The notes under the pieces: model-generated
The model's input: the letters and a program-made list of their open reading frames with translations, nothing else
Told to the model about the DNA's origin: nothing
Databases searched by the model: none
Shown: one piece after another, positions 855 through 64,000 of the stretch
Layout of the letters: every line of letters begins with the position of its first letter
How positions within the stretch are numbered: position 1 is the first letter of the stretch
From: Schmidtea polychroa
Taxonomy: Eukaryota
Direction: 5' to 3'
Length of the DNA: 64,000 nucleotides
Assembly: GCA_044892525.1 (NCBI GenBank)
Contig: CM097885.1
Span: 82,336,001-82,400,000 of the forward strand
Position numbers and translations under genes: made by a program

Positions 855-2414
855 GTACTTTGAAAATAATATGTAGAATCCACGAATCTAATATCCAAAT
901 ATATATAAACAATTGCTAAGAACTAAATTGAATAGTAAATAAACCTAGGACTTCTGGAATGAACTAGTTGATCGGATAATGTAGTGGATTAAATCTGTGT
1001 TGGTAAACAACTTAGATTAGTTTTCATAATTAAATGTAAATTTCCGAACTTATCTCTGTTATTAAATTATTAATTAAATACGATTTTTTGATTTTACTTC
1101 ATTATTAATTATCATTTTTGGGGAATTAATAAATAAACATCGAATTTTGAACAAATTCTCATTGTGAAACATCAACTTTTAGAATTTAAAATGGAATAAA
1201 TAGGTTTAAATCAACTCTCGTAATTAACCATACACTTGTGGAATTTATCAGTGAATTTGGAGATAATCATGGTTTGGGAAATCCACCACATCCCTTGTTT
1301 TCGTCTGCTGGTATGGTACGTTCTATCCTTTGGTTTTTGTTCGTAAGATCAATGTTTACTTTTGAAATTACTGACAGTAAATTATCCCGATAGGTTTGAG
1401 TTACGAGTTTTAATTCATCAACATATGTTGTAAATCTCAGTTTTTTTTTTAAATCACTTTCCTTGTAACGATAATCACTAACAGAGTAATCATCTAACAT
1501 CTTCTAAAGGGTTGACCGTTGAAGGAATATTCGGTATTAAAATTCCTAATAAATGGACAAATATTAAAGTGAACAAGATAATAAGTTGTCTTCATCCATC
1601 AGTCAATAAGGCTTATCGTAGTGAGCAGAGTGTGGCCACAAAAATAAGCAAAAATATTTTTTTAATTTGACCTTTTTCATGGAGTAATATTATATGTAAA
1701 CGTACATTCAGAGTCATTTACTACGACAAAACACTAGGACATTGTACGGGGCAAGACTCAATATGATCACACTACAAAGCTTGTAATCGATAATCCTAAT
1801 TAACTCTAAACTATCAGTAATATCGGATAAAGAGATTCCATTTAAATTTGTTAAACATCAAATTGCCCACGAAACTAATTTCAATAGGCGTAATTTTATG
1901 ATTGGAAATAATTTCAAATTCCAATGCCTCGACTTTTGAAAATATGCTACTATCCATTAATAAATAGCTATCTTTAGTTCTAACCTTTATGATCTTGCAT
2001 TTATATTAATAGATTTAATTTAATGTGGATATGCTATCTAAATGATTGGTGTGAATTATTCAACTACTGATAACTGAAAATTGGTAATTATACATTAAAA
2101 GGTACAAATGTTATAATAGTATTCTCCCTGTGTTTATCGATCCACATTCAATGCTCACTGAAAAAATGTACATATGTAGGTGAAGGTGACACTTTTTGTC
2201 CACCACTGGAGAACGATAACTCTGAGATAGTTGACTCGGGGAACAAAGTATGGGGTTTCGAGGACTTATCTGGGATAGATATTGTAGAACCAGTGGTTGA
2301 TCAGGATGATTTAGTTAATATGGTTATTGATTCAAATAATCCAAATAGGTATTACGTTGAATGCATGACTGAGAAGAAACGCAGATAAATCCATGTGTCT
2401 CTGAACACTCTTAT

Positions 2415-2933
2415 AGTAGGGTAATGTGTGGAGCCGGGAACAAAGAACTATTACGTAATCGATGACGTCACATAGGAAATTACGTCATACCCCCTCTGAC
2501 GTAATTTTATTTTTTTATTTTAATTTTTTTTAATTTGTTTTTTAAAAATATATTACGTTGCGGTATTTTAAATATATTACATTGCGGTATTTTAAATATA
2601 TTACGTTGCGGTATTTTAAATATATTACGTTGCGGTATTTTAAATATATTACGTTGCGGTATTTCAAAATTTAATTATATTTTAATTATTAAATATATTA
2701 CGTTGCGGTATTTTAAAATTTAAATTTAAAAACTGATTTTGACGAAAAAGTTGACAAAATAAAATTATTATTACACACAATGTATATATATAGTCTATCA
2801 GACAAGATATTCCTTCCCCCTATGGTCACACACACAATGTAGAAAAAATATTATTAGTGTCCACACATGCAACAAGTTAGTGTTCTCATCGATAGCTCAT
2901 CTTAAAGTCTAGTATAAGATCTATCTATTGAGA

Positions 2934-2967
<34 letters not shown>

Positions 2968-3120
2968 CTATATACTCCGAGTCTATCCGACAAAATATTC
3001 TGTCCCTCTATGGGTACTGCTCACAAAAGTAAAGGTCACAAATGTACTGCTAAAAATATTCAAGACAAAACTTTAACAAAGATATTATACTTTAAATATA
3101 CACTAAAATTTATTAACACA
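2415..3120 (+). repeat. Left terminal inverted repeat of the Polinton
   Basis: Reverse complement of 15888-16383, with block indels (extra segment at about 2804-2930 and an expanded 24-bp array on the left). Confidence 0.92.
2546..2716 (+). repeat. 24-bp tandem repeat (AAATATATTACGTTGCGGTATTTT x5 plus one degenerate copy) inside the left TIR
   Basis: Read directly from the sequence. The right TIR has a single copy near 16215-16238. Confidence 0.9.
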
Positions 3121-3282
3121 CTGGGTAAAGGTCACAAAGGTAACTAATGTACTGTTAAAAATATTCAAAACAAAACTCTAACATATTATTACACACACAA
3201 TGTATAAAAATTGTTCACAAAGTTACTGTTAAAAATATTCAAGACAATAAGATCAATACATTTATTAAATAATTTAACCACA

Positions 3283-6200
3283 TCATCGAAAATAATCATG
3301 TCCAAAATAATTATCATCTGCTGGATCATGGAAATCATCTGTATCATCTGCTGAGATAGCTTCCGTTGAATCTATAAATATATCGGTGTCACCGCCCCTA
3401 TAATGTCCATATGCCAAACTTTGATTTTTATCCACCCAATTTCGCTTATCATCTCTACATGTCAAGGCTCTTTTATTATTTTTAATACTAAAAAGTTGGT
3501 AATTTTTTGACGTTATTCTAAACTGAGGGACTGTGTATATTTTATCATTTAAATAACAATCTAGATACGACTGATGTGTTAGTCCAGTATCTTTCATACT
3601 TATCCCCTTAGCCTTCATACTTTCCTCATCACCCATCAAACTGTAACATTTAGGTCTCAAGAACACCCAATCTTTATATAATAACCCTTTATTCTCGTCT
3701 TTGAATTTACCAATAACAGAATCAAGGTTCCTACTATATAAAGGATGATTTGGGTCATAATTCGAAGTATCTAATAATTGATCTCTAATCATCGCAGGTA
3801 AAAGAATGTCAAGACTACAATGTTTAATTTCCAAGAAGAAGGAATCTGTGTCTCCAGCAACGATATTAATTTCGCAGTTGAATTCGTCGCGATATTTTTG
3901 CAACTCTTCATACTGCAGCTGGTACATCCTGAGTTTGGATAAATCTAGTACAGTTTGACCAATGTAACTAGGTCTATTCAAACACACTATGTCCTTCCTC
4001 AATAAAACCGAAATCAAGTCATCATCGATTTTCGTGGATTTACGAAAAGTCGGTTTCGAACAGAATGTTGTTAATTTCTGTGAAGAATTACACAGACGTA
4101 AATTAATACGTTTTTTAAGATTTTCAACAGTCTTGCCGTAAAGACTGTTGTTTAATAATTTATAAAAATTTTTATCGAGTTTATTTGTCGACGCTGCTCG
4201 TAACGCCGTATTTGTGTTAATATAATTTTTGAAAATTTTATCTTGTTTAAATTTAATTGCTCTATGTGTTTTTGATATTTTAACACCTAATTTAATAAAT
4301 ATTTGTAGAAGCCTCCAATGAAGAACGTAGTTCCTCTTGGGGCTGTGTGTAAGCAACAGCTTCTCTATTTTTGAACCCGGTACACACATCTTTTCAGCGG
4401 CAACGGGAAGATCGTCCAGTTTGTCGTGAATTGACGTCGGTATTTTTAAATCCACTTCTATGGTATAACCATAATCAAACAGATCTAAATCTACCGTTGT
4501 GCATTCAACAATTATATTATTTAATAAATTATCATCAGTAACCCATTCAAAGTCACTGCAAGGTAATGGTTGACTTAAAGCCCAACCGTATAAATTATTT
4601 ATATCTATGTAAAGCAAAGCAGTATCCGGGTCTGTTTTTACATAATGTTTATTTACAAAAGTTAGTCCGCCACGGATACCGCCCTCGAAAAAGTTATACA
4701 TCTCCATATCGGTGAGGAGCTCAATTGGAGAGTTTAAAGTTAATAAGGCTGAATTCCAAGACATACCTGGAATCCCTAAGAAATTTAATGGCTCTAGTCG
4801 GTTATGAGCAACGGACTTAGCTCTAAATTGCTGGAAAAAATCGGCTAAAAGGAAAACATCAAGTTTTAAATAAACCATCATGTAATCGAAAAGTGAAGTA
4901 CATGAAGTTTCAACCCAAATTCGCTGAGCTGTCTCATATTCAGCGGGAGTCACATCTTTCCAAATAGGAGGTAACTGACGAGAGTTATGTAAAACTTCTA
5001 ATGAAGTTGCGGCATCATAAGGAAAAATTCCCTTTGCAGTTATTATTGTACCCTGAAATTCTGATTCGGTCAAGGGTAAATATGATAAAGTTTTGACAGC
5101 ATTATTTAAAGACTCGCTGACAAATTGATAAGAGTCTATAAATTTAACAGTTAATGAGTCAATCCTAGCAAAAAGACTAAGGAATTTCTCGCTGGTTAAA
5201 GGAATACAACTAATATTCCATGAATGATATTTTGAAAGGCCAAATTTCAAGATATGATGCAGATCATAACCCTTTAAATTATGAAATACTACAGGAAGGG
5301 TATGTCTAATTTGCCTCGACAGATTACAAGTTGTACAAGTGGCACCGAGATATAGACCGGTAAAATGATCATGGTCCCTAACTGGACTAACTAAAGGCTT
5401 ATTGCACAAATAACATGATGTGCTGTTTTCAAACATTAATTGTTGCTCATCTGTAATTATCATTTTCTTTTGATAATTTTTATAATAATAAGGAGTTACA
5501 ATATATTTCCCTATCATTTTAATTTCAGTAAGAAATTGATCGACACAATCTAAACCGGTGAACGACTTATAAATTTTTACGCCCGTGAAATTATTAATAA
5601 AAAGCATACCGGCAGAAATAGGCAGATGACGTTGAAAGTAGCTAGTGTCTTTAGGTAAGATAGCCTCAAAGTCAGCGTAAATAACAAAGGGAGGAGTGAC
5701 TGTTTTACTCCAATCAGTAAATTCTAAATATTTATTTTTAGGCAATGTGTACAAGGTAGTACCAAGCTGATTTTTATCGCAAAGACCCTTATGTCTATTA
5801 AAAGCGTCATCATTTCTAAAACCGTTTAAACATCTAGGGCACCACTGACTACAAATCCTAACAGGAGTGATTGAACTATTCCTACAATTAAGGAATCTAT
5901 TTAGGTCTGTGATTCCAAGATAATGATAATTATCATTCTTTTCAATTAATAATAAATTGATAGGTATGGCTCCTACTATCTTACTCCTGTATATTATATC
6001 AATAAAGGGATATTTCATAACTGCATCTTCATCGGAAATGTCAATCAAAGCCTTTTCGTTATAAGTAAGAACATTTATACTATAACCTGGATTTTGTTGT
6101 TCAAATTTACTTATATTTGATAGTTTCATCGGCATATCATTAGGATCAAATTTAATTTCAGAAAGATTGTATGAATTAGGGCGATTTCTATATTGCCTAT

Positions 6201-6897
6201 TTATACTATCATATTTAATAATTGACAAGAAACTATACAAAAAACAGAAGTGGTCATTATTAACTACATTAACGAGACAGCTTAAGTTTCTTAAAGATTT
6301 TGGGGTTTCAATAAAACTTCTACCACTTAACCGACTTATTTCAGCAAATTTAGTCAGAACAAAGCTTATGTATTCTATTTTATTGATAGTCCAATTACTA
6401 CCTTTCTCATTAATTTTAATTATTTTTTCATTTAAACGAGCAATACCTTCGTCAATGAATGTATCGCTCCAAACTCGGGCGGAATTCGCGATTACAAAAG
6501 ATTGTAACTCATCATCTTTTATAAATTCCACCTTTAGACAAAATTGAATTTTACATGATTTTAATTTATTTACATATAATTTTAATTTATTTATTAAAAT
6601 GTCTGGTACAGAGACCGTTTTTAAATCTAAAGACGAAACGTCCATTTTTAATATAATATGATTATTATTTAAATCACTGGTGACATCTACGACACCATAA
6701 CCTATTTGATTAATATTATTATAATTATTATTATTACCATTATTATAATAAATATTACTACTACTACTACTATTATTATCAATTTCATCATCACTTATGT
6801 TGATTATTTCATCATCACTTATTGTAATTACATCAATAACTTTAGATTTTTTACTTGGTATTGAATTTATTTTTTCATTATTTTTTCTTTTATTCAT
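3283..6897 (-). CDS. polB: Protein-primed family B DNA polymerase (pPolB), 1204 aa, uninterrupted
   Basis: Exo I YADFE, Exo II FHNLKGYD, Exo III KLDVFLL; Pol motifs YIDINNLYG, KLLNNSLYGK, GDTDS, KFKDE, RPKCY, KAKGI. Also an EndoVII-like insertion (CYLC...VRDHDHFTG...CTTCN), a C2H2-like finger (CPRC...HKGLC) and an N-terminal DHFCF...HY segment resembling the vOTU-like domain known in Polinton pPolB. Confidence 0.97.
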   Translation of the reverse strand: MNKRKNNEKINSIPSKKSKVIDVITISDDEIINISDDEIDNNSSSSSNIYYNNGNNNNYNNINQIGYGVVDVTSDLNNNHIILKMDVSSLDLKTVSVPDILINKLKLYVNKLKSCKIQFCLKVEFIKDDELQSFVIANSARVWSDTFIDEGIARLNEKIIKINEKGSNWTINKIEYISFVLTKFAEISRLSGRSFIETPKSLRNLSCLVNVVNNDHFCFLYSFLSIIKYDSINRQYRNRPNSYNLSEIKFDPNDMPMKLSNISKFEQQNPGYSINVLTYNEKALIDISDEDAVMKYPFIDIIYRSKIVGAIPINLLLIEKNDNYHYLGITDLNRFLNCRNSSITPVRICSQWCPRCLNGFRNDDAFNRHKGLCDKNQLGTTLYTLPKNKYLEFTDWSKTVTPPFVIYADFEAILPKDTSYFQRHLPISAGMLFINNFTGVKIYKSFTGLDCVDQFLTEIKMIGKYIVTPYYYKNYQKKMIITDEQQLMFENSTSCYLCNKPLVSPVRDHDHFTGLYLGATCTTCNLSRQIRHTLPVVFHNLKGYDLHHILKFGLSKYHSWNISCIPLTSEKFLSLFARIDSLTVKFIDSYQFVSESLNNAVKTLSYLPLTESEFQGTIITAKGIFPYDAATSLEVLHNSRQLPPIWKDVTPAEYETAQRIWVETSCTSLFDYMMVYLKLDVFLLADFFQQFRAKSVAHNRLEPLNFLGIPGMSWNSALLTLNSPIELLTDMEMYNFFEGGIRGGLTFVNKHYVKTDPDTALLYIDINNLYGWALSQPLPCSDFEWVTDDNLLNNIIVECTTVDLDLFDYGYTIEVDLKIPTSIHDKLDDLPVAAEKMCVPGSKIEKLLLTHSPKRNYVLHWRLLQIFIKLGVKISKTHRAIKFKQDKIFKNYINTNTALRAASTNKLDKNFYKLLNNSLYGKTVENLKKRINLRLCNSSQKLTTFCSKPTFRKSTKIDDDLISVLLRKDIVCLNRPSYIGQTVLDLSKLRMYQLQYEELQKYRDEFNCEINIVAGDTDSFFLEIKHCSLDILLPAMIRDQLLDTSNYDPNHPLYSRNLDSVIGKFKDENKGLLYKDWVFLRPKCYSLMGDEESMKAKGISMKDTGLTHQSYLDCYLNDKIYTVPQFRITSKNYQLFSIKNNKRALTCRDDKRNWVDKNQSLAYGHYRGGDTDIFIDSTEAISADDTDDFHDPADDNYFGHDYFR

Positions 6898-7046
6898 ATT
6901 AATTAGATTATTTATTTGATCATTTAATTTATTTACTTGATCCTTTAGTTTAGTTATTTCGTTTATATCATTATTATTGGTGTTGTTAGTATTATTGTTG
7001 GTGATATTATTATTATTATTGTTGATATTAATATTATTGTTGTTGA

Positions 7047-7077
<31 letters not shown>

Positions 7078-7479
7078 AAACGATTCATATAAGCTATAGA
7101 AAAGAGATTTCTTAGAAGGTTTAAATTGTTGGAGATGGAGTCTATGCTTATTATAAAATTCTTATACGTTATAACTTCAATAACCTCACATTAAGGGCAT
7201 AGGATGTAGGTGACACCGTTATATTTATGACTATAATATCTTTCCATTATATCATCGCAGTCATTATGATATTGACTATTACAAAGGTTTTGGTATTTCA
7301 AACCTATGAAAATATTTTTATCATAAAATGGTTCAAAATATTAAGATAATTTTAATAATCATTTTCAAAGTTTAACATATTTTTCGTAAGATATTATTCA
7401 AAATTGTCTTTTAAATAGTATCTTATAAAAAATATTATAAAATATATAATTTAATTCAAAATCATCATATTGAATAAAT

Positions 7480-7740
7480 CTTCCTTTCAAAATTATCTTC
7501 TTTTCATGAATAAATTTTCTTTTCATAAATCTTCCTTTCAAAATCATCATAAATAAATCTTCTTTTCATAAATCTTCCTTTCAAAATCATCATAAATAAA
7601 TAAATCTTCTTTTCATAAATAAATATTCTTTTCATAAATCTTCCTTTCAAAATCATCATAAATAAATAAATCTTCTTTTAAAATATCTTCTTTTCATGAA
7701 TAAATCTTCCTTTCATAAGTTTCTTTATAATCTTCTTTTA
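7480..7740. repeat. Imperfect tandem repeats of about 30-45 bp (AAATCTTCCTTTCAAAATCATCATAAAT-like), followed by (ATT)n to about 7786
   Basis: Recurring AAATCTTCC/TTTTCA motifs read directly. Confidence 0.75.
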
Positions 7741-7788
<48 letters not shown>

Positions 7789-7843
7789 ATTGTTTAAAAA
7801 ACTTAAAAACCTCAAAAACTTATAACAATAAATAAATACTTAC

Positions 7844-8127
7844 ATTTTCGTCCTTTCGAAAGAAATTTTCCAGCATCAGAACCAGCAGAAGTATTTATTA
7901 CATTTCCATCTAAAAGCATAATAAAAATAATAATGATTATAATAGTAAACTATTACCATTTATTCTATTCATGTCTACAGCTTGTCCGTCGATATTCATT
8001 TTAATTTGTTGATTAGTACCTAATAATCATATTAAAAATAATAAAATAATAAAATAATAAATTTACCATTAATTCCTCCAACAATCTTTCCGTCAACTCT
8101 TTGAATATTGTTGTTGTTGTTGTTCAT
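7844..8127 (-). CDS. Spliced Polinton accessory gene of unknown function; exons 8127-8067, 8019-7957, 7909-7844; 3' end unresolved
   Basis: Two 47-nt GT-AG introns (8066-8020, 7956-7910) and a perfect GTAAGT donor at 7843. The spliced frame is open: MNNNNNNIQRVDGKIVGGINGTNQQIKMNIDGQAVDMNRINDGNVINTSAGSDAGKFLSKGRK. TATATAAG near 8190 and ATTGG near 8225 lie upstream on this strand. Confidence 0.7.
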
Positions 8128-8473
8128 GTTGTTAAATATTGTTAATAGATTTTTAAAAGTGATGAAAAAAAAATGAAAGTGTAGACTATATAAGAGAGAT
8201 ATTACAGGTTTTATTAACCGACCAATGAAAATAGAGATAGGATAGGAAAAGACGCTACATGTTTGTTTATACAAACCATGACGAAATAATGACCTTTACA
8301 CGTCTTTATTACTCAGTTCTTTGTTACTTTGCACTGTGCATGCACTGAACATGGTATAGTATTACATAATATTTTTAAACATAAAATAATAATATTTAAC
8401 AAATAATAATATTTAACAATATTTAACAAATAATTAAAATAGTCAACAAAAAAAATCATACAGTTTACATTTA

Positions 8474-8821
8474 TTAACCATCAAATTTTTTATACAACAA
8501 CCATGCCAAACAGTGTTGACCACATGTTTGAGTCAATGGATTTTGAAACATAGTTTTATTATATACAATAGGTTTCCCAATTGTTTGAAGTTTTGATATC
8601 AACAAAGCAGGATAATAGAAACCCATAGGATCGAATACGAATATATTACCAGGTTTCACATATATAGCTATCCAATGTTCTCCACCAAGATGAGACGAAT
8701 GAGTATTGACGATTATGGCTTGATTATGGCTCAAATAAGGAATTTTATCGAGAGGAAAAACACCTACAAATTCATTTCCTAATATTTGTTTTCCAATTCG
8801 ATTAACCTGAACAGAACTACT
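8474..8821 (-). CDS. Adenain-like (Ulp1 family) cysteine maturation protease; start codon not found
   Basis: Catalytic motifs GEHW, FDPMG and QTCGQHC. The frame is open upstream of the listed ORF (FVGVFPLDKIP) up to a TAA at 8822-8824. Confidence 0.9.
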   Translation of the reverse strand, partial: SSSVQVNRIGKQILGNEFVGVFPLDKIPYLSHNQAIIVNTHSSHLGGEHWIAIYVKPGNIFVFDPMGFYYPALLISKLQTIGKPIVYNKTMFQNPLTQTCGQHCLAWLLYKKFDG

Positions 8822-8885
8822 TTAATAAATCCTGAGTATAAAAAACAACTTACTCCATGACAACTTTTTGTGTTTCTGTATACAT

Positions 8886-10109
8886 TTATACTAGCACGGT
8901 TCTATTTGAAGTAATTTGAACTTCATTTTCAAATACTCCATATATTATAACATGTACCGGTTCTGTAATGGCCTTTGCAAACTTAATATCCAGTCGTAAA
9001 TTCCCGTTTTGTGGTAGTTGACTCTGATTTAAATCAAAATCGGGAGCTAAAACAAATGTGAAAAATGGATATTTGCTTTTAAATTATTCTAGAGTAATTC
9101 CACAATTCAAGTTTTTATCTAAGTAACCCAGATTTCTAACAATACTCTGCATATATGTTGCACAGTAATTATCGCTTTCGAAATCTTGAGTATATGTTTC
9201 TCTATAATCAGTATTTTTCGACAAAGTCAATGAAGTAACACCAAAATTTTTGAAAATTGAGCTGGACGCAGTATAAGATCCATTATATTGTGTTTCACTT
9301 TGAAATGTCACCAGAATAAAATTAGGCATTCGTCTGTCACCAAATATTTGTTCTTTATAGAATGATGAAGCACCTTTAGCAATAGCAAATTGTACAATTT
9401 CCTTTGTTTTCAAAGGATAAATTGCATGTTTTGAATTAAGACCCAATTGATGACCAGCTAATACTGACGGGTCTACTCGAACTCTTCTCACCAATAATTT
9501 TGCATCAACTAATTGACATATTGGTGCACCAGTAGCACTAGTAAGAGATATTGCAGAATCGGACCTTTTCAATCTAATATGTATATTAACTCCCGGTAGT
9601 AAATATTTCGGTTGATCCATAAAATCAAGTTGTAATGATGAGCACATAGTGAATACTTTTGAACCTTTAACCCACTTTTTTCTTTCATCATCTGCTGCTG
9701 CATAACCCATAGGTGTAAGACAGGTATTTTTAGTATCGGAATTGTAATTTAAAATAGTTTCTATCAAAGCCTTGTGAATGAATGTATTATTTCCGCCCTC
9801 AATCTTGATATTATTAAATCCCAACACTGCATCTTTAAACAGAGTATGAAACATGAAATTGTTTGGTAATACATCCGCATTGGCATCTAAAACTTTTCTA
9901 TCTTTATCTACAACTTTGATCTGAACAGTCAATAAAGTATCGTTCAAATCTAAATATTCAGTTTGCGAACCATTAATATAAAACTCGATATCATTTCTAC
10001 TATCAGTAATTGAATTCATAGGAAAAACTTCTTCAAATGCCCCAAATTCTATTACAGCCTAGGGTGATGGTCTATCAAATATACATAATTCGGATTTACC
10101 ACAAATCAT
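8886..10109 (-). pseudogene. Double jelly-roll major capsid protein (PY) with two in-frame stops
   Basis: ATG at 10109 gives MICGKSELCIFDRPSP*AVIE (TAG 10059-10061), the typical SEL.LF..P..Q N-terminus. After TAA 9084-9086 the frame continues FKSKYPFFTF...GNLRLDIKF...VIIYGVFENEVQITSNRTVLV*, the typical MCP C-terminus. Confidence 0.9.
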
Positions 10110-10474
10110 TTTGCAAATATAGTTCCATGTCCTTTCATTCGTTTGTTTATACGTGATATTCCATGTCCTTTACGTTTTGGAGCGTGATTTGGGACTGGGG
10201 GTTCATCTTTTTGAAACATACCAGCAACTCCAGGTAGAACCTTACCTAATTCAGCTAAAGCATTTGTTTTTAGGGATGGTAATATTTTCTGTTCATTCAT
10301 AATCACATCTTTTGCAGTTTTCATACCAAAACTACCAATACGTTTAAGAATAGGAAGTGCAAATCTCCCTATTGTTTTTAACCAACCTGATCCGTACTGT
10401 TTACCAATAAAATATGGTAATTCCCCGCCAGATTGGCTATCACTATACATACTAATAATATCGGAATTAGCCAT
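10106..10474 (-). CDS. Polinton virion core/cement-type protein with GG and GxG protease-site-like motifs
   Basis: QSGGELPYFIGKQYGSGWLK...PILKRIG, a basic C-terminus, and the conserved position between penton and MCP. Its TGA overlaps the MCP ATG. Confidence 0.7.
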   Translation of the reverse strand: MANSDIISMYSDSQSGGELPYFIGKQYGSGWLKTIGRFALPILKRIGSFGMKTAKDVIMNEQKILPSLKTNALAELGKVLPGVAGMFQKDEPPVPNHAPKRKGHGISRINKRMKGHGTIFAK

Positions 10475-11533
10475 CTACTTTACGAAAATGTAGTGTCAAA
10501 TGAGTTTTTGAGTCTTTTAGGAAGTTTATAAGTTTTCCACTATCGTCACGAATATTTATTTCTATATTGTTTATATATGAGCTTGAAATTGGTAAATACA
10601 TGGGATTATCTATATTTATATTGACAACTTCATCATGTTCATATTTTCCAATCCACACCGATCTCAATATAGGAACACTGGAATCACCAACAATTATAGG
10701 CTCAATAATATTAGTATATATGAACATTTGTTGATGATGTTCAAGTATTCTTGGTTTACGTATACCAGCCGATTTTTCCCGATATTGCTGCTTCTCTAAT
10801 CCAAGTGTATTTGTCAAATTTTTATCAAATGTAACTTCGCAAATGTCATCATTCAAACTGAATGTAAATAACAAATCTTTCACAATGTCAAACTTTTAAA
10901 TATGTGTGAACAATAGTACTTTAAATATTTAAGTAATACATCAAGTTTATCAATATATAATTCGTCAGCGAAGGTGAATGATTCTTCAACTTCATTATTA
11001 TACGACACTGATATTTTGATTTCTTCTCTCATTACACTGTTTGCTTCAAATAGATCAAAGCGTAATAAATATTCTGTTTCCATAACTTCATTTTTCAACT
11101 TATTGCAGCCCATTCGTCTGGCATCTTCAATATATTCGAATGTTATTGTAAATGGTTTAAAATCACAACTGATATTTAATCCATCCTTGTAAAACATAGA
11201 GCAATGCGGATCTAATATTTGATTCGGAATATGATATGTTTTATCATAATTACTGATAATAAAGATACCACTACATGTTTTCATAGCATTCCTTTTGAAA
11301 TCAATCTTACATTGACTAAAAAATGGGAATGTATTGTACACGAATGTAAAATCTTGCAGTGCAACTTCCCAGTCCCCATTTAAAGAAATCGGATTCTGGA
11401 GATTGACCATGAATTTACTGGCTTGATTATCTGGATGAATAAGCGGCCAACTATTGCTTGGTAAAATAGTATAAAAATTCACTTTACTAGATCCTCTTCT
11501 GATATCCATGATGGGTTTTGATAACCATGCCAT
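10467..11533 (-). pseudogene. Minor capsid protein (penton, PX) split into two frames at about 10883
   Basis: N-terminal FYTILPSNS...LQNPISLNGDWEVAL and C-terminal FIYTNIIEPIIVGDSSVPILR...IEINIRDDSG...LHFR are the two conserved ends of Polinton pentons. One extra T at AGT-TT-GAC would fuse the frames. Confidence 0.85.
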
Positions 11534-12531
11534 TTGACATAGTATTGTTTATCCTTGCCGACCTTTTTAGTTTTCAATATCTTTTGAATTCTAAATACTT
11601 TTGGGGGAGGAATGACTTGTAATTCCTGCTCATAAAATTTCCCTTGTACAATATTATTATCATAATCACTGATAACATACATTACAGGACTCTGGCTAGT
11701 ATTTATTTTTGAAATTACAAAGACTTCATCACTCCAATTTGTATCGAAATTTTTAATAAATGGTGATGCACTAATTTTACTAATTCTAACATGGTCACCT
11801 ACTTTATATTTCGGTTTTGTAATTTTTACAGGTTTTTTAGAATAGATTGTTTTTGAAGTGATATCAATCGGTCTTAATCCATTCAGTCCTCGATGTGATG
11901 AATGATTATAACTGGTTATTATTTTTGGTAAAACCAGTACCCATTTTTTATTACCTTGATGCACGAATAATTTCTTTAATCTATCTCTCAATGTTCGGTT
12001 AAATCTTCCAACATGAGCAGCTTTGTATTGAGAATGTACTGAGTAATGGTTTATTTTCAATTTATTGAGGATTTGCTTGACTTTACTGTTGTAGAATTCT
12101 TTACCTAAAATAATAATAATAATAATAATAATAATATTAATACCTAAATCCGTTTGCAAGTTATTAGGATGTCCATCTTTAAATAAATCATTAACAGCAT
12201 TAGACATTTCATCTGCAGATTTTGCCTTGACGGGTATTGCTCGGGCAAACCGACTGAATACATCAATACATGTTAAAATATATTTATACCCATTGTTAAT
12301 TTTCGAATAAGGTATCATCTCCATCAAATCCATTTGCCATAAATCATTTATTCCATATGTTTTATATACTTTTGTTGGGAATCGTTTCCGCATTGGTTTG
12401 TTCAAACTGTACGCAAGCTGGTCTGATAACCACTTCTGGGTTTCTTTTTTCGAATTCGGAACTCTTTTCTTTAATTTTGCCACTCCACCGAAACCGGCTT
12501 CGTCTTCGGGGTTCGTCCAAATCTTCTCCAT
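11479..12531 (-). CDS. int: Retroviral-type (rve) integrase with C-terminal chromodomain-like region; 39-nt intron at 12143-12105; catalytic Glu appears mutated
   Basis: WQMDL, IDVFSRFA, LQTD(L)GKEF after removing the GT...AG insert, HVGRFNRTL (usually ERFNRTL), YYVKWHGY...SWI. Likely ATG at 12531. Confidence 0.93.
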   Translation of the reverse strand: MEKIWTNPEDEAGFGGVAKLKKRVPNSKKETQKWLSDQLAYSLNKPMRKRFPTKVYKTYGINDLWQMDLMEMIPYSKINNGYKYILTCIDVFSRFARAIPVKAKSADEMSNAVNDLFKDGHPNNLQTDLGINIIIIIIIIILGKEFYNSKVKQILNKLKINHYSVHSQYKAAHVGRFNRTLRDRLKKLFVHQGNKKWVLVLPKIITSYNHSSHRGLNGLRPIDITSKTIYSKKPVKITKPKYKVGDHVRISKISASPFIKNFDTNWSDEVFVISKINTSQSPVMYVISDYDNNIVQGKFYEQELQVIPPPKVFRIQKILKTKKVGKDKQYYVKWHGYQNPSWISEEDLVK

Positions 12532-12589
12532 TACAACAAGAAGATTTAATATCAAATTTAATGTCTGGTAATGAAGGATTAGCACCCAT
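12362..12589 (-). CDS. Small ORF overlapping the integrase start, with N-myristoylation (MGxxxS) and CC motifs
   Basis: MGANPSLPDIKFDIKSSCCNG. A homologous open frame of the same extent exists in the relic at 42748-42972. Confidence 0.65.
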   Translation of the reverse strand: MGANPSLPDIKFDIKSSCCNGEDLDEPRRRSRFRWSGKIKEKSSEFEKRNPEVVIRPACVQFEQTNAETIPNKSI

Positions 12590-12592
12590 TGT

Positions 12593-13087
12593 TTATGATC
12601 GACTTCCTACAACTCCACCTAATAATGATATTGCTAAAGGTATCAATGCACCGATAAATCCCCCTTGTTGTTTATATATAATTTTTCTCATTTGTTGACG
12701 ATTTTTATTATTTACTAATGATAGCAAAGGTTTCCTATGTTTACTCAATAAATGCTTTTTAGATTTACTGATTTTGATCTTGCCTTTGACTACTTTAAGT
12801 ATAATATCGAGTAAATCATCGACAACATAATTTGGAAAAGATTGCAAAATACTGTTTCTTTTCATACTGGGTGCCTTTAACAATGTATTGAAAAACGGGA
12901 AACTCCGATGATTTTTAACAACTTTTACTTTCTTAATGGTTTTACTTTTAGGTTTAGGTTTAGGATTTTTCGAAATAAGATTCATTGCAGGAAAATTTTC
13001 TGTAATAAGTTCTTTAGATGGAGTATAACTAGTTGTTGGTGGAACTTTTGGTTGTTTTTTACTCGATATCCTTGTTTTTGAAAACAT
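12593..13087 (-). CDS. Lys-rich Polinton core protein with a QQGG motif followed by a hydrophobic helix
   Basis: KQQGGFIGALIPLAISLLGG C-terminus; conserved position between ATPase and integrase. Confidence 0.7.
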   Translation of the reverse strand: MFSKTRISSKKQPKVPPTTSYTPSKELITENFPAMNLISKNPKPKPKSKTIKKVKVVKNHRSFPFFNTLLKAPSMKRNSILQSFPNYVVDDLLDIILKVVKGKIKISKSKKHLLSKHRKPLLSLVNNKNRQQMRKIIYKQQGGFIGALIPLAISLLGGVVGSRS

Positions 13088-13100
13088 GATTTATGTGTTT

Positions 13101-13739
13101 TCAAATTTGTTTTGAACTTTGTTTATAAACCATGGCACCTTTTGGGTTGAAAATATCTGTTTTTACTCGTAAATCATCAGGACATTGTTGTGTGAAATCG
13201 AGAAATATATACCCATGAGGTATTTTCGTAGCATCTTGAAATGCATTGATAAGAAAATTACGGTTATTAGGGTATGCTTGTCGTCCAAGAAAATCAATGA
13301 CAGTTGCATCTCTAGGATTCTTGAAAATAACTAGATATTATACATTTAAATTACGTGTTCGATGTGCACCACCTTGATGAAATAGATTTTGTGTTATGAA
13401 AATAACTGTAACACCAACATGTCTGCTGATTTTTGTGAATTGATTATTAAAATCCTTTTCTTTATTGGCTTCTTGATACAAATCATCGATAATGATGACA
13501 TCATCTCTCTTCAAACGACTTGACCAGTTTTTATCAAAACCCTTTACTATTTTCATGTTTTTCAACTGACAGAAACTTGATTGCGTCAATCCGTGTTCTT
13601 CATCGGCGCCCCTATGCCAATAAATATTGTTGAATTTTATTTTGAACAAATTTGATTTTAGTAATTTACAAACAAATAATGTTTTTCCGCTACCACTTGG
13701 ACCAACGATTTGGTATACTGCATCATTTCGTAATTCCAT
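13101..13739 (-). pseudogene. A32/FtsK-like genome packaging ATPase with one in-frame stop (13338-13340)
   Basis: Walker A GPSGSGKT, Walker B VIIIDD, SRH and ITQN. After the TAA the frame continues YLVIFKNPRD...AFQDATKIPHGYIFLD...LRVKTDIF to TGA at 13101-13103. Confidence 0.93.
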
Positions 13740-13845
13740 TTTTTAAATTTAAACTATATAATTATTGTTTATATTGATAATTTAAATGAACTCCGTTTTA
13801 AAATAACTATATATATAACAGAGTTTTTATAATTATTTCATTAAA

Positions 13846-14259
13846 ATGCTTTCAAATATAAATTACAGGGCAAAAGCTGATGTATCAAAAATGGTATTTC
13901 CAATGGGGAAACCACAACAACTTATCAATAGAAGTAAAAAATATCCAATAATATATTTCAAAACTGGTAAATGTAGAATTATGGGGTGTAAGGAAATAAT
14001 CAAAGCTAGTGAATATAATGTTTATGATTTAGAAATACAATCGATAACCGTAACTTCCGATATAGGTTTTTTTTGTAATTTAAATGAATTGGCTAAATTA
14101 ATACCATGTGTTTACGAACCAGAATTATTTCCAGCTTTGAGATATATAAAATATAACCCTATGTGTGTAAATATATTCGCTAGCGGTAAGATAGTAATTC
14201 TTGGAATAAAAAATATTGATTACAAATGTATAGTTGATAATATCCTATCTGAAATTTAA
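13846..14259 (+). CDS. TBP: TATA-box binding protein (TBP)-like protein, 137 aa, inside the Polinton
   Basis: Second repeat IQS...YEPELFPALRY...IFASGKIVILGIK matches eukaryotic TBP IQN...YEPELFPGLIY...IFVSGKVVLTGAK. A shortened first repeat retains YFKTGKCRIMGCK. Confidence 0.88.
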   Translation: MLSNINYRAKADVSKMVFPMGKPQQLINRSKKYPIIYFKTGKCRIMGCKEIIKASEYNVYDLEIQSITVTSDIGFFCNLNELAKLIPCVYEPELFPALRYIKYNPMCVNIFASGKIVILGIKNIDYKCIVDNILSEI

Positions 14260-14427
14260 TCAATAATTGAAGGAAATGAATTTTTAGATTTTTTATTATC
14301 ACTTAATTAATTATTTATCATTGCAAATTCAATGCAATTGAAATGCATGATTCTGATTGGTCGAAATCTAATTGGCTGATGATTATTTATAACAAAATGT
14401 TTTCGGTTTAGTTGTCATTTTTAAACC

Positions 14428-14834
14428 ATGTACAACATACAAAGTTCAGCTATAGCAGCCATGAAAGAACATGAACATTATGGTAAATTTTAATTGTATA
14501 TATCATATTATTATTATTATTTACAGATGAATATCATGCAATAATACTGGAAAGATTGTATTTTTATTACCCGCAAATGTATGATATTCTCAAAGATCGA
14601 GATGTTGCAATAATCCCAGATTTAATTTACAATGAAACCAGAATCTGTATTTTCGATATTATCAATACATTTCTCTGGGATGTGAAGATTGGAAGAACAA
14701 TGAATGAAGTAGAAGTAGAATACCCTTGCAGTTTGGGTTGTAGCTGTTGCAATTTCCGCTACCAGAGATATGTCGAATGGTCTTTGGTAAAGACACTTCG
14801 TAATTACCATTTTTGTCAAATTTTATCCAAATAA
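14428..14834 (+). CDS. Spliced Polinton accessory gene (exons 14428-14482, 14527-14834), Cys-containing, unknown function
   Basis: A 44-nt GT-AG intron (14483-14526) joins an ATG exon in frame to the listed TTG-start ORF. ATTGG boxes lie upstream near 14355 and 14373. Confidence 0.7.
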
Positions 14835-15000
14835 ATTTTTATGTTTAACCATTTTTTGCTTTGTCTTTTTAGTAATAGAAATAATATTAATAATAATAAT
14901 AATAATTTTAATAATATAAAACGTGTGTCAATGCAATATCATTGCAATTTAAAACAAAGACATGCAGCAATCTGATTGGATGATAAACAATAGTCATAGG

Positions 15001-15008
15001 TATATAAA
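15001..15008 (+). promoter_or_regulatory. TATA box (TATATAAA) with an upstream ATTGG (CCAAT) box near 14975
   Basis: Lies 34 nt upstream of the ATG at 15042. Confidence 0.5.
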
Positions 15009-15041
15009 CCCTGTACCATTTCATTTTAATCATAATTCACG

Positions 15042-15461
15042 ATGACAAAGAAAATTTCAAGTACTGAAAAACCAAAAGTTGTTCCAGAACTTGTAAAACC
15101 TGTTCAAATGTTCCACAACTATAAAATGTATTTTTTAAAAGAAGAAATCAATATGAAATTGGTTGCACCAGTCAAGCTAATTCCAACTAAATTTCAATTC
15201 TTATCCGGCACGCTTTCAATGATTGATGTAAAAACTATTAATGATGTTTTTAAACGGTTGAATACGAATCTATCTTGTAATCAACATGCATTTTTCAACA
15301 ACCGATATGCAAGATTTTATGATTCCTTTGATGAAATCAGCTTCAAAGAAAACGAAAATTGGTATATAACAATTGCAATCCAAGGATATAAAGTTGATAA
15401 AATTGATGTGTATTCTCCAATTTGGAAAATTATGTCTGCTAGACTTTCACAGATATTTTAA
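15042..15461 (+). CDS. Polinton accessory protein, 139 aa, possibly an OB-fold ssDNA-binding protein
   Basis: Clean ATG-to-stop ORF with a TATA promoter. The beta-rich aromatic C-terminus (WYITIAIQGY...YSPIWKI) suggests the fold, which is unverified. Confidence 0.6.
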   Translation: MTKKISSTEKPKVVPELVKPVQMFHNYKMYFLKEEINMKLVAPVKLIPTKFQFLSGTLSMIDVKTINDVFKRLNTNLSCNQHAFFNNRYARFYDSFDEISFKENENWYITIAIQGYKVDKIDVYSPIWKIMSARLSQIF

Positions 15462-15564
15462 TAAATGTTGTTGTATTTAATAAATGTATTTAGTTATATT
15501 TGTTTTCGCTTATATTCTATATTTTCTATAAACAAATATATACTATAGTTTTAAAATACAAATA

Positions 15565-15905
15565 ATGACTACAGAAAAAGGTTAATATGATTAGTTAATT
15601 ATTGAATTATTTAATATTTAGAATTTATAATAAACTTTTTATTGGAAAAATTAGCAGAAATATCTGGTGTGAAAATGGAGGATATATTATCTGTTACAAA
15701 CGCATTACATATAGACTGGGTAACAGAGAGTGAAACTGATAAAGAAAACACTCCAGATGATGAGGAAAGTATTCAAGAAATTGATGAACCTATGGAGGAA
15801 TTTACAGATACTGAACCATGTGTATATAGCGATTGTATAGATCATGTTGTTGAAAATGTTATGAAATGTGGAGATGATGAATGTGAATGTGTTAATAAAT
15901 TTTAG
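15565..15905 (+). CDS. Spliced acidic, Cys-tipped accessory protein (exons 15565-15580, 15622-15905)
   Basis: A 41-nt GT-AG intron (15581-15621) joins ATG ACT ACA GAA AAA G in frame to the listed ORF. The last codons lie inside the right TIR. Confidence 0.7.
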
Positions 15906-16082
15906 TGTATATTTAAAGTATAATTTCTTTGTTAAAGTTTTGTCTTGAATATTTGTTAGCAGTACATTTGCGACCTTTAGCTTTGTGACCTTTACCTTTG
16001 TGAGCAGTACCCATAGAGGGACAGAATATTTTGTCGGATAGACTCGGAGTATATAGATTAATAATAATAATAATAATCTGAT

Positions 16083-16149
<67 letters not shown>

Positions 16150-16383
16150 TGTGTGTAATAATCATTTTATTTTGTCAACTTTTTCGTCAAAATAAGTTTT
16201 TAAATTTAAATTTTAAAATACCGCAACGTAATATATTTTTAAAAAAAAAATTTTTAAAAAAAGAAAAAAATAAAATAAAAAAAAAAGTACCCCACTTCGG
16301 GGAGGGGGTATGACGTAATTTCCTTTGTGGCGTCATCGATTACGTAATAGTTCTTTGTTCCCGGCTCCACACATTACCGTACT
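15888..16383 (-). repeat. Right terminal inverted repeat of the Polinton, containing a (TA)n microsatellite at about 16087-16146
   Basis: Reverse complement of 2415-3120. Confidence 0.92.
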
Positions 16384-16439
16384 TCTTATATCCAACGAAA
16401 ACCATAAACAATTGGAAGTTAGCATAAAATATAATTCAA

Positions 16440-30489: not shown

Positions 30490-31109
30490 CTGAGTGGATT
30501 GTTAAAATATTGGTATTAATCTCCTTTCCGACGAGTATTTTATCTCAGGGGCTTACTAAAAATAGATTTGGTGACCTTTGTCACTAGGGTAATCATAAAA
30601 TCAATATTACGATTGGCACAGTTATAGTAGCAGAAACAATGCTATCTACAAATATTATTCGATAGCGTCGCCTCGCCTGACTATCATATGACCCAAAAAA
30701 ATGTAATTTGGTTTATAACTTGTATTTTAAATGATACACAGTATCTTAATGGTATTTGATGTGGCTGTCAATGGTCCTACCACTGGGGGCTTCATAAAAT
30801 TTTATAATTCATGTTTTTATATATACTATAAGTTTAATATATATTGGGATAGGTTGATTTAAGTTATTTATGTAATGGTTAGTGTCTATGCGAAATTGGT
30901 GGGGGGTCGTTTATAAAAAATTTGTATTTTTATAAATAATATAAGATTAATATCTGTCATGACAGGTTGGCTTAAGTGGTTTATATACCGGTTAGTATCT
31001 AGGCAAAATTGAGGGAAGTCATTTATAGAAAATTTATAATTTATATTTTTATGAATATTATAACTTCAGTATAATTTATGATTTAATCTATTTCAATCGT
31101 GTTCTTTCA

Positions 31110-32211
31110 TTAATTGTCGATGAGTCTCAAAGCAATCAAAAATTTTTCTTCAATCTTTTGAGATACATATATACCTTTATAATTTGTCTCATAGACATTT
31201 TGTCCACACTTTGTTTCAGTTTCTTTTCTCAGGAATCGCATCCCATCTTCCTCCGAGGTTGACATTAACACTGTTGGAGTATCTTTCATCCGTAGCGGTG
31301 TGATTCTTGTTGTTGTACTCGTTGCTGGATCCATTCTTATTTTCTCAGACTTTTCCCTGATCTGCTCTCCCGTTATTTCTTTAAAACTCATTGACTTCAA
31401 TTGCAATAAATTGCACTTTTTGGTATCGACATCGTACACCAAGATTGATTCTCCGGTCTGACAGCTAGATTGTTTCATGTTGCAGAATGGATGTGTTTGT
31501 AGTTTACCAGTATCATCATCAAATGATCCATCAAATTCTCTTAATTCTGACATGTACTCTTCCACAACCACGTCTTTGTCAATTATAGCATCGTCTACTT
31601 TGTAGGGCTCTCCTTGGCAATCACCATTCGACTTTATTATCCCTCGCACGGTTACAGTCTCACGTATTTTGTGGTTAAGCTTTGCTTGTAGTTTAATATC
31701 TGCATTGATTTTCAACTGCCCTGTTTGAAAGGCTGCCAAACAATTCTCTGGAATTATTTCTATCGGTCTCGGTATCGATTGCATTTTCACCATCGATGAG
31801 TGGCTCCATTTTCCACAATAAAATACAAAAGTAGTTCTTTTCGCTGCACACTCTCTCACCTTTGCTCGTCGAAACCCCGATTCTTGATATACATGATATA
31901 TATTTTACTGGATTTGTCACTTTAAATTTTACTGGATATGCATCCGAACACTCTGCTACGTTTACCAACGAATATACTCTTCCCATTTCGGTTTGGGAAC
32001 AGTCGTATGCCACCAATGAATTCGTCGTGTTTATTATTCCCAATAACATAATAATAGAAATCATCAACCATGGAAATGCGAGTTTTCCCTTTTTCCTCAA
32101 TGTCTCTGTTTTTGGGCTCTCAGCCTTTTGTATTAACTTTTCCCATCCGCCATTGTTTGCCATCCCCTTCATCAAATATTTATTTGTCATTTCAGTGGCT
32201 TTCTTTATCAA
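31110..32211 (-). pseudogene. env: Envelope glycoprotein resembling chuvirus/Monjiviricetes class III fusion proteins; frameshifted at about 31895, C-terminally truncated
   Basis: Signal-like segment (AFPWLMISIIMLLGIINTTNS) followed by LVAYDC…YSLVNVAEC. Removing 2 nt of the TATATA run gives KYHVYQESGFRRAKVRECAAKRTTFVFYCGKWSH, then ENC, GDCQG, PFC…SCQT, KCN and KCGQNVYET. Confidence 0.75.
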
Positions 32212-32217
32212 TGATTT

Positions 32218-33590
32218 TTAATTGTCAGCTTCCAGACAACCATAAATACCAATCTCCAATATTATATAGGCTAGCACTGTCAATATTACATCTCGATCCA
32301 ACTCGGCTCGTGTTAGGTCCTCAATTACTGCTTCCTCACAAAATTCCTTTTCTTCATAATTTCTTTTAATTATCGACGGTAATCTCCTCTTTAATTCCGT
32401 TGCCAATCTTTTTATAACTCTTTTCTCCCCCTCCGAATTATCATCTCCTTCTGTTTCAGTTTCATCTAACAAGTACAATTCCGCAACTAAACTTTTTAAT
32501 ATTCGCTCAGTTTCGCTTGATTCATCTAAACTCAAAAATTCAATTTCCGCATCATTCTGTTTTTTTCGACATTTCGCAATGTCATTTTTCGTTTCAACGA
32601 AGTTCTCATCACTTTTCATCTCATCTATGCTCGGTAGTACCCTATTATCGGTGCTCATTTCCTCGATATCCCTTGTAACTTCATTTTCCGATCCCATTTC
32701 CTCATTTTCCATTGTTTCTAATCTCTGCAATTCATTAATTTCTTGATCAATTTCTCTTGGGTCATCTACAACTTCAGTTTTAATCTCTACATTATCATTA
32801 TCCGTTTCCTCATACAGAGGCCAAAACGGTACTATTACTGCATCTTTTTCCATTTCATCACTTTGTTTTGTTGCGTACACATTATTAATACAATTTGGGT
32901 TACATCCGTAGTTTAACAAATATTCGTCATCATCCAATTCTCGTCCTTTGAACGTCAACACGATAATTCCTTCATTACCTAATATCTCCGCTGCTTTTTG
33001 TCCTATTTTCTTTGCTTTTACACTCCAATGTTCCTGATAATATTCAATCCTTTGATCCGTAATATTTAACGCTATTATCAAAGACTTCGCACTATCGTTT
33101 GCAGCCTCATAATCATGTCCTAGTTTTCGGATTACCTCTTTCAACTTTGCCTGATAACTTGTCGGTTTATTCGTATACAGTACGATGCATTCAAACAACA
33201 CTTCTTTTATGTCTCGATCCATTTCGATGCTCATTATGAAGTTCATTATGATGCTCATTAATTTTATCTCTATTCCCTGCATACAGGGTATCTTGTAAAT
33301 CTGCTAGAATCTTTTCCCAATTTTGTCTGTCTGAATTCAAAGTATTAACAGCATTAACAACATTTACTTTATTCTTCCAGCCTGGTATCAGACCGCAATC
33401 TACCAAGTACTCCTCGTCTTCCAGACATCGATTCTCAAATTTTAATTGCACTTGCCACCCACTGTATTGCCACTCCTTTACTGCCCTCCTTATCAAATAG
33501 ACCGTAACTGCAAAAATACACTTAGGAGATAAATAGCAAAACGTGTTTTCAATTCTGCCAAACAGTTAACCTAAACCAATCATCCATTTA
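32218..33590 (-). pseudogene. Accessory frame with two ubiquitin-like domains and an acidic region; frameshift near 33285; in frame with env across one TAA
   Basis: QLKFENRCLEDEEYLVDCGLIPG and VLTFKGRELDDDEYLLNYGCNPN resemble each other and ubiquitin [20 protein letters not shown]. Confidence 0.6.
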
Positions 33591-33694
33591 TATTTCTAAG
33601 GCCTCGGACTAGATACGGTCTTATCGCTAAGCAGAATGAAGGTTAATTGCAACTGCATACAGTTGACGCCTCTAACTCGATTTTTGTAGTTTTG

Positions 33695-34195
33695 TCAGTT
33701 ACGGTCTATTTGATAAGGAGGGCAGTTTAGCTCTCTGATTTGTCCGTATGCATTTACACGGAATTGGCACTTCACATTATCCAGGCCCGTCGTTTCCATT
33801 ATGATATCAGCTAAATCCCTTGTTGGCCGTAAAGCCTTGCCAAACTTTTGCATTTGTTTAAGTATCTCATCGTCTCTGTTTCCTTTGAATAACTTTGCAC
33901 ATAAATTTATGGCTCTCTTTAGTTCGCTTTGGGTTAGTGACATCACACTGAGTTCTGCGATCCATCGTTTCAACTGGTAGTTGTCAGTTTCCATTTTCTC
34001 AAGCCATTTTTCGACTCGGGCTAACAGTGCAGTCGGATTCTCATCTGATGCGATCTTTCGCACTTTCGTGGCAGGTTTTCCCTCACCTTCTGACACGGTT
34101 CCAATTATCATATTAGATTCAGTTTCCTCATCTGATTCAAATTTAGCCACTAATTTGTTCAGCTTCTGTCGCATTTCTCGAAATTCCTTTTCCAT
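33695..34195 (-). CDS. Helical/coiled-coil accessory ORF of the LTR element, unknown function
   Basis: 166-aa ATG ORF between gag and the UBL frame. Confidence 0.5.
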   Translation of the reverse strand: MEKEFREMRQKLNKLVAKFESDEETESNMIIGTVSEGEGKPATKVRKIASDENPTALLARVEKWLEKMETDNYQLKRWIAELSVMSLTQSELKRAINLCAKLFKGNRDDEILKQMQKFGKALRPTRDLADIIMETTGLDNVKCQFRVNAYGQIRELNCPPYQIDRN

Positions 34196-34235
34196 TTTGT
34201 CTTAAAATTCCTCTCTTTGAGAATATGTCATATTA

Positions 34236-63985: not shown

Positions 63986-64000
63986 GTAACGTTTATAATA

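What the first reader, a model, noticed from the sequence alone, without database searches (positions are those of the whole stretch)
12105..12143. 39-nt stop-free intron inside the integrase catalytic core; one of at least six phase-1 introns in this Polinton
Seen: GTATTAAT(ATT)nTTTAG interrupts LQTDL-G-KEF next to the second catalytic Asp. It is a multiple of 3, so ORF callers read it as GINIIIIIIIIIL. Further GT-AG introns restore frames at 14483-14526 (44 nt), 15581-15621 (41 nt), 8066-8020 and 7956-7910 (47 nt each), with another donor at 7843. All are phase 1 and match the size of the host gene's short introns (43-60 nt). Inference: an intron-rich, nucleus-adapted polintovirus; retention versus splicing could regulate integrase activity.
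Basis: partly seen in the sequence, partly recalled or inferred. Interest (0 to 1): 0.7.

Follow-up and report, generated by a model that had tools for sequence, protein, structure and literature searches.

The report
Microsatellite intron in Polinton integrase
A high-copy, virus-like jumping element (Polinton/Maverick) carries a short GT-AG insert of pure ATT repeats next to an active-site residue of its integrase, likely a host-spliced intron inherited by the whole family and possibly gained twice at the same spot, although such genes are described as intron-free; spliced RNA was not seen.

Summary
The 39-nt insert is real. It lies in a 13,969-bp Polinton (TIRs, 6-bp TSD). It is not copy-specific: 66 of 68 parsed family copies have GT..AG (21-171 nt), and no insert-free copy of this family was found among about 1,460 sites. 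Three other families carry unrelated 40-43-nt GT-AG inserts at the same base, with in-frame stops or frameshifts. Both exons are under purifying selection. 120 of 120 homologous proteins and 31 of 31 scorable metagenome loci lack the insert. It is therefore very likely a spliceosomal intron. 'Stop-free 3n' follows from ATT slippage and is not conserved, so a retention switch is unsupported. The five other candidates hold up by comparison; all six are phase 1, but one is 540 nt. Intron-bearing integrases are not one clade (AU p=0.003): either two parallel gains or one gain plus precise losses. No spliced transcript was seen; putative-RNA contigs show the retained form. This copy is dead (breaks in five genes). 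The scan found the same intron before on another copy (e1-9281158).

The parts
2415..16383 (.). Whole Polinton/Maverick copy, 13,969 bp, termini AGTA.., long imperfect TIRs
   Evidence: TIR arms; termini
2409..2414 (+). Left 6-bp target-site duplication (TCTTAT)
16384..16389 (+). Right 6-bp target-site duplication (TCTTAT)
12144..12531 (-). Integrase exon 1 (388 nt; first and second catalytic Asp)
12105..12143 (-). 39-nt GT-(ATT)n-TTTAG insert, phase 1, likely spliceosomal intron
11479..12104 (-). Integrase exon 2 (rest of core, chromodomain); this copy has lost the third acidic residue of the DDE triad
8067..8127 (-). pPolB leader exon 1 (ATG, 61 nt), predicted
8020..8066 (-). 47-nt GT-AG intron, phase 1; 39-50 nt, GT..AG in 7 of 7 copies where both flanks were found (20 stretches examined)
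7957..8019 (-). pPolB leader exon 2 (63 nt), predicted
7910..7956 (-). 47-nt GT-AG intron, phase 1; GT..AG in 6 of 7 copies with both flanks
7844..7909 (-). pPolB leader exon 3 (66 nt), predicted
7304..7843 (-). 540-nt GT-AG intron, phase 1, repeat-filled; 528-858 nt in 7 of 7 copies tested
3283..7303 (-). Last pPolB exon: Cys/His-rich start, low-complexity stretch, DNA_pol_B_2; this copy has a stop and a frame break near its start
8474..8821 (-). Adenain-like protease
   Evidence: Peptidase_C5
8886..10094 (-). Major capsid protein, interrupted by a stop in this copy
   Evidence: double-jelly-roll look-alikes at 0.97
10467..11548 (-). Probable minor capsid gene (label from gene position and recall); two frames in this copy, one 360-aa frame in sisters
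13101..13742 (-). Packaging ATPase, interrupted by a stop in this copy
   Evidence: Pox_A32
13819..14259 (+). TBP-like gene
   Evidence: PF00352 E 1.7e-14
14428..14834 (+). Two-exon accessory gene, no Pfam match; unspliced it stops after 21 codons
14483..14526 (+). 44-nt GT-AG intron, phase 1; 41-47 nt with diverged interiors, GT..AG in 6 of 6 copies with both flanks
15565..15905 (+). Two-exon acidic accessory gene, no Pfam match; unspliced it stops after 6 codons
15581..15621 (+). 41-nt GT-AG intron, phase 1; 8 of 9 copies with both flanks parse as 41 nt GT..AG, one parses one base shifted

Best explanation
The 39-nt GT-(ATT)n-AG stretch is a family-wide insert in the integrase gene of a Polinton, and it is likely a constitutive spliceosomal intron that the host removes to give the normal D-x-G-K-E-F active-site loop. 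Shown: the insert travels with the element, keeps GT/AG, and sits between two exons under purifying selection. Inferred: it was gained inside this host lineage at a site that already reads like both a donor and an acceptor (TTTAG|GTAAAG); in this family its AT-rich body turned into an ATT repeat that slips in steps of three, which is why it is 3n and stop-free. Integrase would be made only from spliced nuclear transcripts. A retained transcript would escape nonsense-mediated decay but give a probably dead enzyme with roughly 7-57 extra hydrophobic residues beside the catalytic Asp: a cost, not a switch.
For: Insert present with GT..AG in 30 of 30 loci and 66 of 68 parsed unique copies, 21-171 nt. 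About 1,460 exact matches to the exon-1 end; a 0-30-nt gap pattern finds 6 sites, none with gap 0. Other families: 367 sites with GT..AG at the same base, of 383 with free ends. Among 30 fetched: 21 have a 42-nt insert with 2-3 in-frame stops (12 with both exons open), 7 a 43-nt, 1 a 40-nt, 1 a 41-nt. dN/dS between the stop-bearing and frameshifting families is 0.09 (exon 1) and 0.14 (exon 2) at dS about 0.9. Some copies have identical exons, so they moved recently with the insert. No insert in 120 of 120 homologous proteins or 31 of 31 scorable metagenome loci, of 37. Host introns are 40-60 nt. Five more GT-AG introns restore frames in the same element.
Against: In runs guessed to be RNA, contigs run from exon 1 into the repeat and from the repeat into exon 2 (X4 records 18-20; X1 record 5 and loose ends), so the retained form is what was seen; these runs may contain DNA or antisense RNA. 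Insert-free integrase families exist in the same genome (111 sites) and could in principle supply the enzyme in trans. The ATT intron has no visible branch-point motif (sequence inspection). Copies were chosen by similarity searches, which favours intact ones. The 120 proteins come from gene callers that would split intron-bearing genes.
Confidence: 0.85

Rival explanations
1. Regulated retention: the host or the element toggles splicing by tissue, and the stop-free retained form is a deliberate off-state or a dominant-negative integrase (P-element-like control, recalled).
For: The insert sits next to a catalytic Asp. 62 of 68 copies are 3n. Putative-RNA contigs show retention. 3n stop-free introns escape NMD and are normally counter-selected (PMC2809761 passages), so keeping one needs an explanation.
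Against: 3n is forced by trinucleotide slippage. Sister families have stops or frameshifts at the same place. Repeat length varies 51-171 nt between copies with identical exons, so the retained product is unconstrained.
Confidence: 0.1
2. Not an intron: an unspliced insertion carried by non-autonomous families that are mobilised by insert-free families, or a tolerated poly-Ile loop.
For: No spliced junction was seen. Insert-free families share the genome. The retained form appears in putative-RNA contigs.
Against: Four unrelated insert sequences all begin GT and end AG at the same base. Exon 2 is under purifying selection downstream of stops and frameshifts. No homologue has a loop here.
Confidence: 0.05

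Closest known systems
Animal Polintons/Mavericks (adintoviruses; PMC8097293, PMC8502044; passages read)
   Same: pPolB, rve integrase with chromodomain, A32-type ATPase, adenain protease, capsid genes, TIRs, 6-bp TSD. A TBP-like gene label occurs in a figure legend of PMC8502044.
   Different: Intact vertebrate Mavericks are described as intronless, in agreement with Kapitonov and Jurka 2006 as cited there. Here integrase, the pPolB leader and two accessory genes carry GT-AG introns that move with the element.
Introners in dinoflagellate maverick-polinton-like proviruses (PMC11957031; passages read)
   Same: Spliceosomal-type introns inside full-length Polinton-like elements.
   Different: Those are transposon-made introns, mostly inserted after integration. 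Here the intron is fixed at one site, inherited by over a thousand copies, and shows no shared sequence between families.
Ginger1 DNA transposons (PMC2836005; passages read)
   Same: Integrase-like DDE transposase genes with 1-4 GT-AG introns in invertebrates.
   Different: Small cut-and-paste elements without polymerase or capsid; the introns are not described as microsatellites.
Newly gained introns of Daphnia and Drosophila (PMC4202315, PMC2809761; passages read)
   Same: AT-rich short new introns, short direct repeats at the junctions, parallel gains at one site (43 of 90 in Daphnia).
   Different: Host genes in populations, not a virus-like element. New Drosophila introns are depleted of the 3n stop-free class to which this one belongs.

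Membership tests
Polinton/Maverick | Protein-primed family B polymerase | tested here: met
   DNA_pol_B_2 E 7e-29
Polinton/Maverick | Retroviral-like integrase | tested here: met
   rve E 7.5e-8, above the cutoff; 120 homologues at 48-73% identity
Polinton/Maverick | Packaging ATPase and adenain-like protease | tested here: met
   Pox_A32 and Peptidase_C5
Polinton/Maverick | Double-jelly-roll major capsid protein | tested here: met
   No Pfam hit; Atlas look-alikes at 0.97 carrying PF21738 in 14-16% of members. Feature similarity only, no structure.
Polinton/Maverick | [quoted passage not shown] | tested here: met
Polinton/Maverick | Intronless core genes (as described for intact vertebrate elements) | tested here: not met
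   Integrase and pPolB leader interrupted by GT-AG inserts in all sampled copies; a described trait, not a strict criterion
U2 spliceosomal intron | GT..AG ends conserved while the interior drifts | tested here: met
   66 of 68; 367 of 383
U2 spliceosomal intron | Removal restores a conserved frame under selection | tested here: met
U2 spliceosomal intron | Absent from mature mRNA | tested here: inconclusive
   Only contigs of runs guessed to be RNA; retained form seen, no joint listed
U2 spliceosomal intron | Branch point | not testable with these tools
   None visible in the ATT repeat; needs lariat sequencing
Introner (intron-generating transposon) | Same sequence at many unrelated sites, with TIR or TSD | tested here: inconclusive
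   Inserts of different families are no more alike than shuffles; junction repeats are short and overlap the splice consensus; no genome-wide search for the insert sequences outside Polintons was made

The most novel reading that the evidence does not exclude
Two separate Polinton lineages in one host gained an intron at the identical base of the integrase active site, because the codons there form a ready-made acceptor-plus-donor. These non-retroid, high-copy elements would then be a dated natural series of intron birth (absent, 40-43-nt AT-rich, pure microsatellite) in virus genes thought to be intron-free.
Probability: 0.4. Interest if true: 0.7.

Novelty: new variant of a known kind. Interest (0 to 1): 0.5.

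Why it matters
Polinton core genes are described as intron-free, so ORF callers mis-annotate these elements: here a fake poly-Ile loop in integrase and a truncated polymerase start. Heritable introns show that these elements depend on nuclear transcription and host splicing. Intron-bearing and intron-free sister families in one genome, with more than a thousand copies, make the mechanism of intron gain and loss directly testable, including parallel gain at one site and survival of an NMD-invisible microsatellite intron.

Tried and rejected
RNA: no RNA holder listed on record. Laying four runs guessed to be RNA on 7800-15880 skipped the repeat at 12099-12150 and listed no joint at any candidate intron. 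Laying three of them plus one probable DNA run on a sister copy with a 21-nt insert listed no joint at the intron. Contigs drop rare forms, so this is not evidence of absence. One X1 contig seemed to hold another short insert at the site; a search of the genome for it found nothing. Viral contigs gave no relative. Copy-specific microsatellite: rejected. Assembly artefact: rejected, as the insert is on four chromosomes and in the contigs of an independent run. Local gene conversion spreading the intron between clades: no rise in identity next to the junction, and both exons give the same grouping. Intron sequence similarity cannot tell gain from loss (saturated). The second integrase fragment in the window (42612-43031) ends before the site. 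The first tree was the quick version only, with a poorly filled F row; one search replaced it with 22 rows (14 own-genome, 8 of 120 homologues). Three of 71 unique loci were not parsed (one with a changed exon end, two without exon 2 in range). No fold or complex job was run. No supplements were read; Repbase entries and Kapitonov and Jurka 2006 were not available and may already annotate exons in such elements.

Full report
Observation. The window holds a complete Polinton/Maverick copy at 2415-16383 with terminal inverted repeats and a 6-bp target-site duplication. It encodes pPolB, an rve integrase with chromodomain, an A32-type ATPase, an adenain protease and a TBP-like protein, and a capsid protein with double-jelly-roll look-alikes. 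The integrase frame 12606-11479 contains the 39-nt stretch 12143-12105, GT-ATTAAT-(ATT)n-TTTAG, in phase 1, directly after the second catalytic Asp.

Is it copy-specific? No. The genome (781 Mb) has about 1,460 exact matches to a 17-nt motif at the end of exon 1. Of 71 unique copies fetched, 68 could be parsed: all carry the insert, 66 with GT..AG, 21-171 nt, median 72, 62 of them 3n, and 50 with both exons open. These copies were picked by similarity, which favours intact ones. A pattern allowing a 0-30-nt gap found six sites, none with gap 0. Copies with identical exons have inserts of 51, 99, 102 and 171 nt, so the family moved recently and the repeat changes much faster than the exons. One subfamily has an interrupted 42-45-nt version.

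Is it an intron? Homologous integrases have one residue between the Asp and the Gly in 120 of 120 cases: 118 by pattern and 2 by eye. Because gene callers would split intron-bearing genes, I also checked DNA: 31 of 37 metagenome loci show the uninterrupted motif; four end before the site and two are too diverged to score. In the same genome, other Polinton families carry different, non-repetitive inserts at the identical base: 367 sites with GT and AG fixed, against 383 with the ends free. Of 30 fetched, 21 have a 42-nt insert with two or three in-frame stops (12 with both exons open), 7 have 43 nt (3 open), one has 40 nt and one 41 nt. Eight more 40-nt copies all had a broken exon. Between the 42-nt and 43-nt families dN/dS is 0.09 in exon 1 and 0.14 in exon 2 at dS about 0.9; between the window copy and its subfamilies it is 0.12-0.53. 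Selection on an exon that lies behind stops or a frameshift is hard to explain without splicing. Six host introns nearby are 40-60 nt.

Other introns. The four other intervals are GT..AG and phase 1. Among 20 ten-kb stretches, both flanks were found in 6 (14483-14526), 9 (15581-15621), 7 (8066-8020) and 7 (7956-7910) copies; GT..AG was kept in 6, 8, 7 and 6 of them, with variable lengths. Without splicing, the two accessory genes stop after 21 and 6 codons, although each has a later in-frame Met. The donor at 7843 joins an acceptor at 7304 (540 nt; 528-858 nt in 7 of 7 sisters) that opens a Cys/His-rich exon leading into pPolB. All six introns are phase 1; coding composition explains part of this (p about 0.003-0.02).

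RNA. No run on record as RNA holds the stretch. Contigs of runs guessed to be RNA were laid twice. The first call skipped the repeat. In the second, on a sister copy with a 21-nt insert, contigs of X1 and X4 ran from exon 1 into the repeat and from the repeat into exon 2, and no joint at the intron was listed. This is the one result against my reading. It is weak: the runs may hold DNA from a family of over a thousand copies or antisense RNA, and contigs drop minor forms. Splicing remains inferred.

Regulation. The stop-free 3n state needs no selection, because an ATT run changes length in threes and reads as Ile in this frame. Sister families have stops or frameshifts at the same site, and the retained product varies by tens of residues between otherwise identical copies. 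I give regulation about 0.1. Introns of this class are invisible to NMD and are usually counter-selected (PMC2809761, passages), so either splicing is efficient or the cost is tolerated.

Origin. Insert-free integrases exist in this genome (111 sites, 100 listed), at 71-81% amino-acid identity to the window's exons. In a 22-row tree, intron-bearing integrases fall in two groups: the window's family with the 40-nt family, sister to an intron-free lineage, and the 42/43-nt families, sister to two other intron-free lineages. A single intron clade is rejected (AU p 0.003), also by each exon alone (p 0.03 and 0.008). A shared two-residue deletion links the 42/43-nt families to their intron-free sisters. 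This needs either two gains at one base or one gain and at least two or three precise losses. The base of the tree is unresolved and the insert sequences are saturated, so I cannot decide; parallel gain about 0.4. The empty site in several relatives reads TTTAG|GTAAAG, which is both an acceptor and a donor, so a short duplication there would give an intron at once, and slippage between the resulting repeats could also remove it. Both steps are inference; the junction repeats (8 nt here, 11 nt in the 42-nt family) overlap the splice consensus. Parallel gains and junction repeats are known from Daphnia and Drosophila host genes (PMC4202315, PMC2809761; passages).

Comparison with print. Intact vertebrate Mavericks are described as intronless (PMC8097293, passages). 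Introners occur in dinoflagellate maverick-polinton-like proviruses, mostly by later insertion (PMC11957031, passages). Ginger1 transposase genes have GT-AG introns (PMC2836005, passages). Passages on introns in PMC12220804, PMC11296320, PMC6431247, PMC8502044 and 10.1101/2023.08.22.554363 concern group I or II introns or references only. Four searches (listings only, beyond the papers named) showed no report of inherited spliceosomal introns in an animal Polinton integrase. Subscription papers, Repbase and supplements were not seen. Earlier scan notes describe the same intron on another copy (e1-9281158) and call the host a flatworm; I did not test the host's identity.

Verdict. A real, family-wide, very likely spliceosomal intron in a Polinton integrase (0.85), seen here in a dead copy; regulation unsupported; origin possibly parallel. 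New variant of a known kind; interest 0.5.

Noticed in passing
window 2415-16383: This copy is dead although its TIRs and TSD are intact: stops in the major capsid and ATPase genes, a split minor-capsid frame, a stop and a frame break in the last pPolB exon, and loss of the third catalytic residue of integrase.
   Followed up: yes
all six element introns: All are phase 1. The bias of G towards codon position 1 in this AT-rich coding DNA gives an expected phase-1 share of 0.37-0.54 (p about 0.003-0.02 for six of six), so composition explains only part.
   Followed up: partly
L142-L176 capsid genes: The major capsid tree differs from the integrase tree (intron-free family I groups with the window's family), showing gene-wise mosaicism among families.
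   Followed up: partly
L031-L036: Five of six copies with inserts of 30 nt or less have broken exons, which hints at a lower size limit near 39-42 nt for active copies; the samples were picked differently, so this is weak.
   Followed up: partly
window 13819-14259: The element carries a TBP-like gene, also present in sister families.
   Followed up: no
window 6760-6850 (minus strand): Two hydrophobic-acidic motifs in the low-complexity part of pPolB resemble SUMO-interacting motifs (recalled, untested).
   Followed up: no
window 14322-14949: Subfamily B lacks this segment with its two-exon gene, and contigs of two runs join across it.
   Followed up: partly
window 31100-35100 (minus strand): Decayed element with a CCHC zinc knuckle and a Monjiviricetes-type fusion glycoprotein match, probably an env-bearing LTR retrotransposon.
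   Followed up: no
window 42400-43030 (minus strand): Rearranged fragment of another Polinton family (integrase start fused to capsid pieces).
   Followed up: partly
window 59053-64000: Host gene with Ig domains and cysteine-rich repeats (perlecan-like by recall) and 40-60-nt introns.
   Followed up: partly
L034 1530 and 1793: Run X2 has poly-T and poly-A loose ends on both strands of the integrase gene, a hint of sense and antisense transcripts or of priming on A-rich stretches.
   Followed up: no
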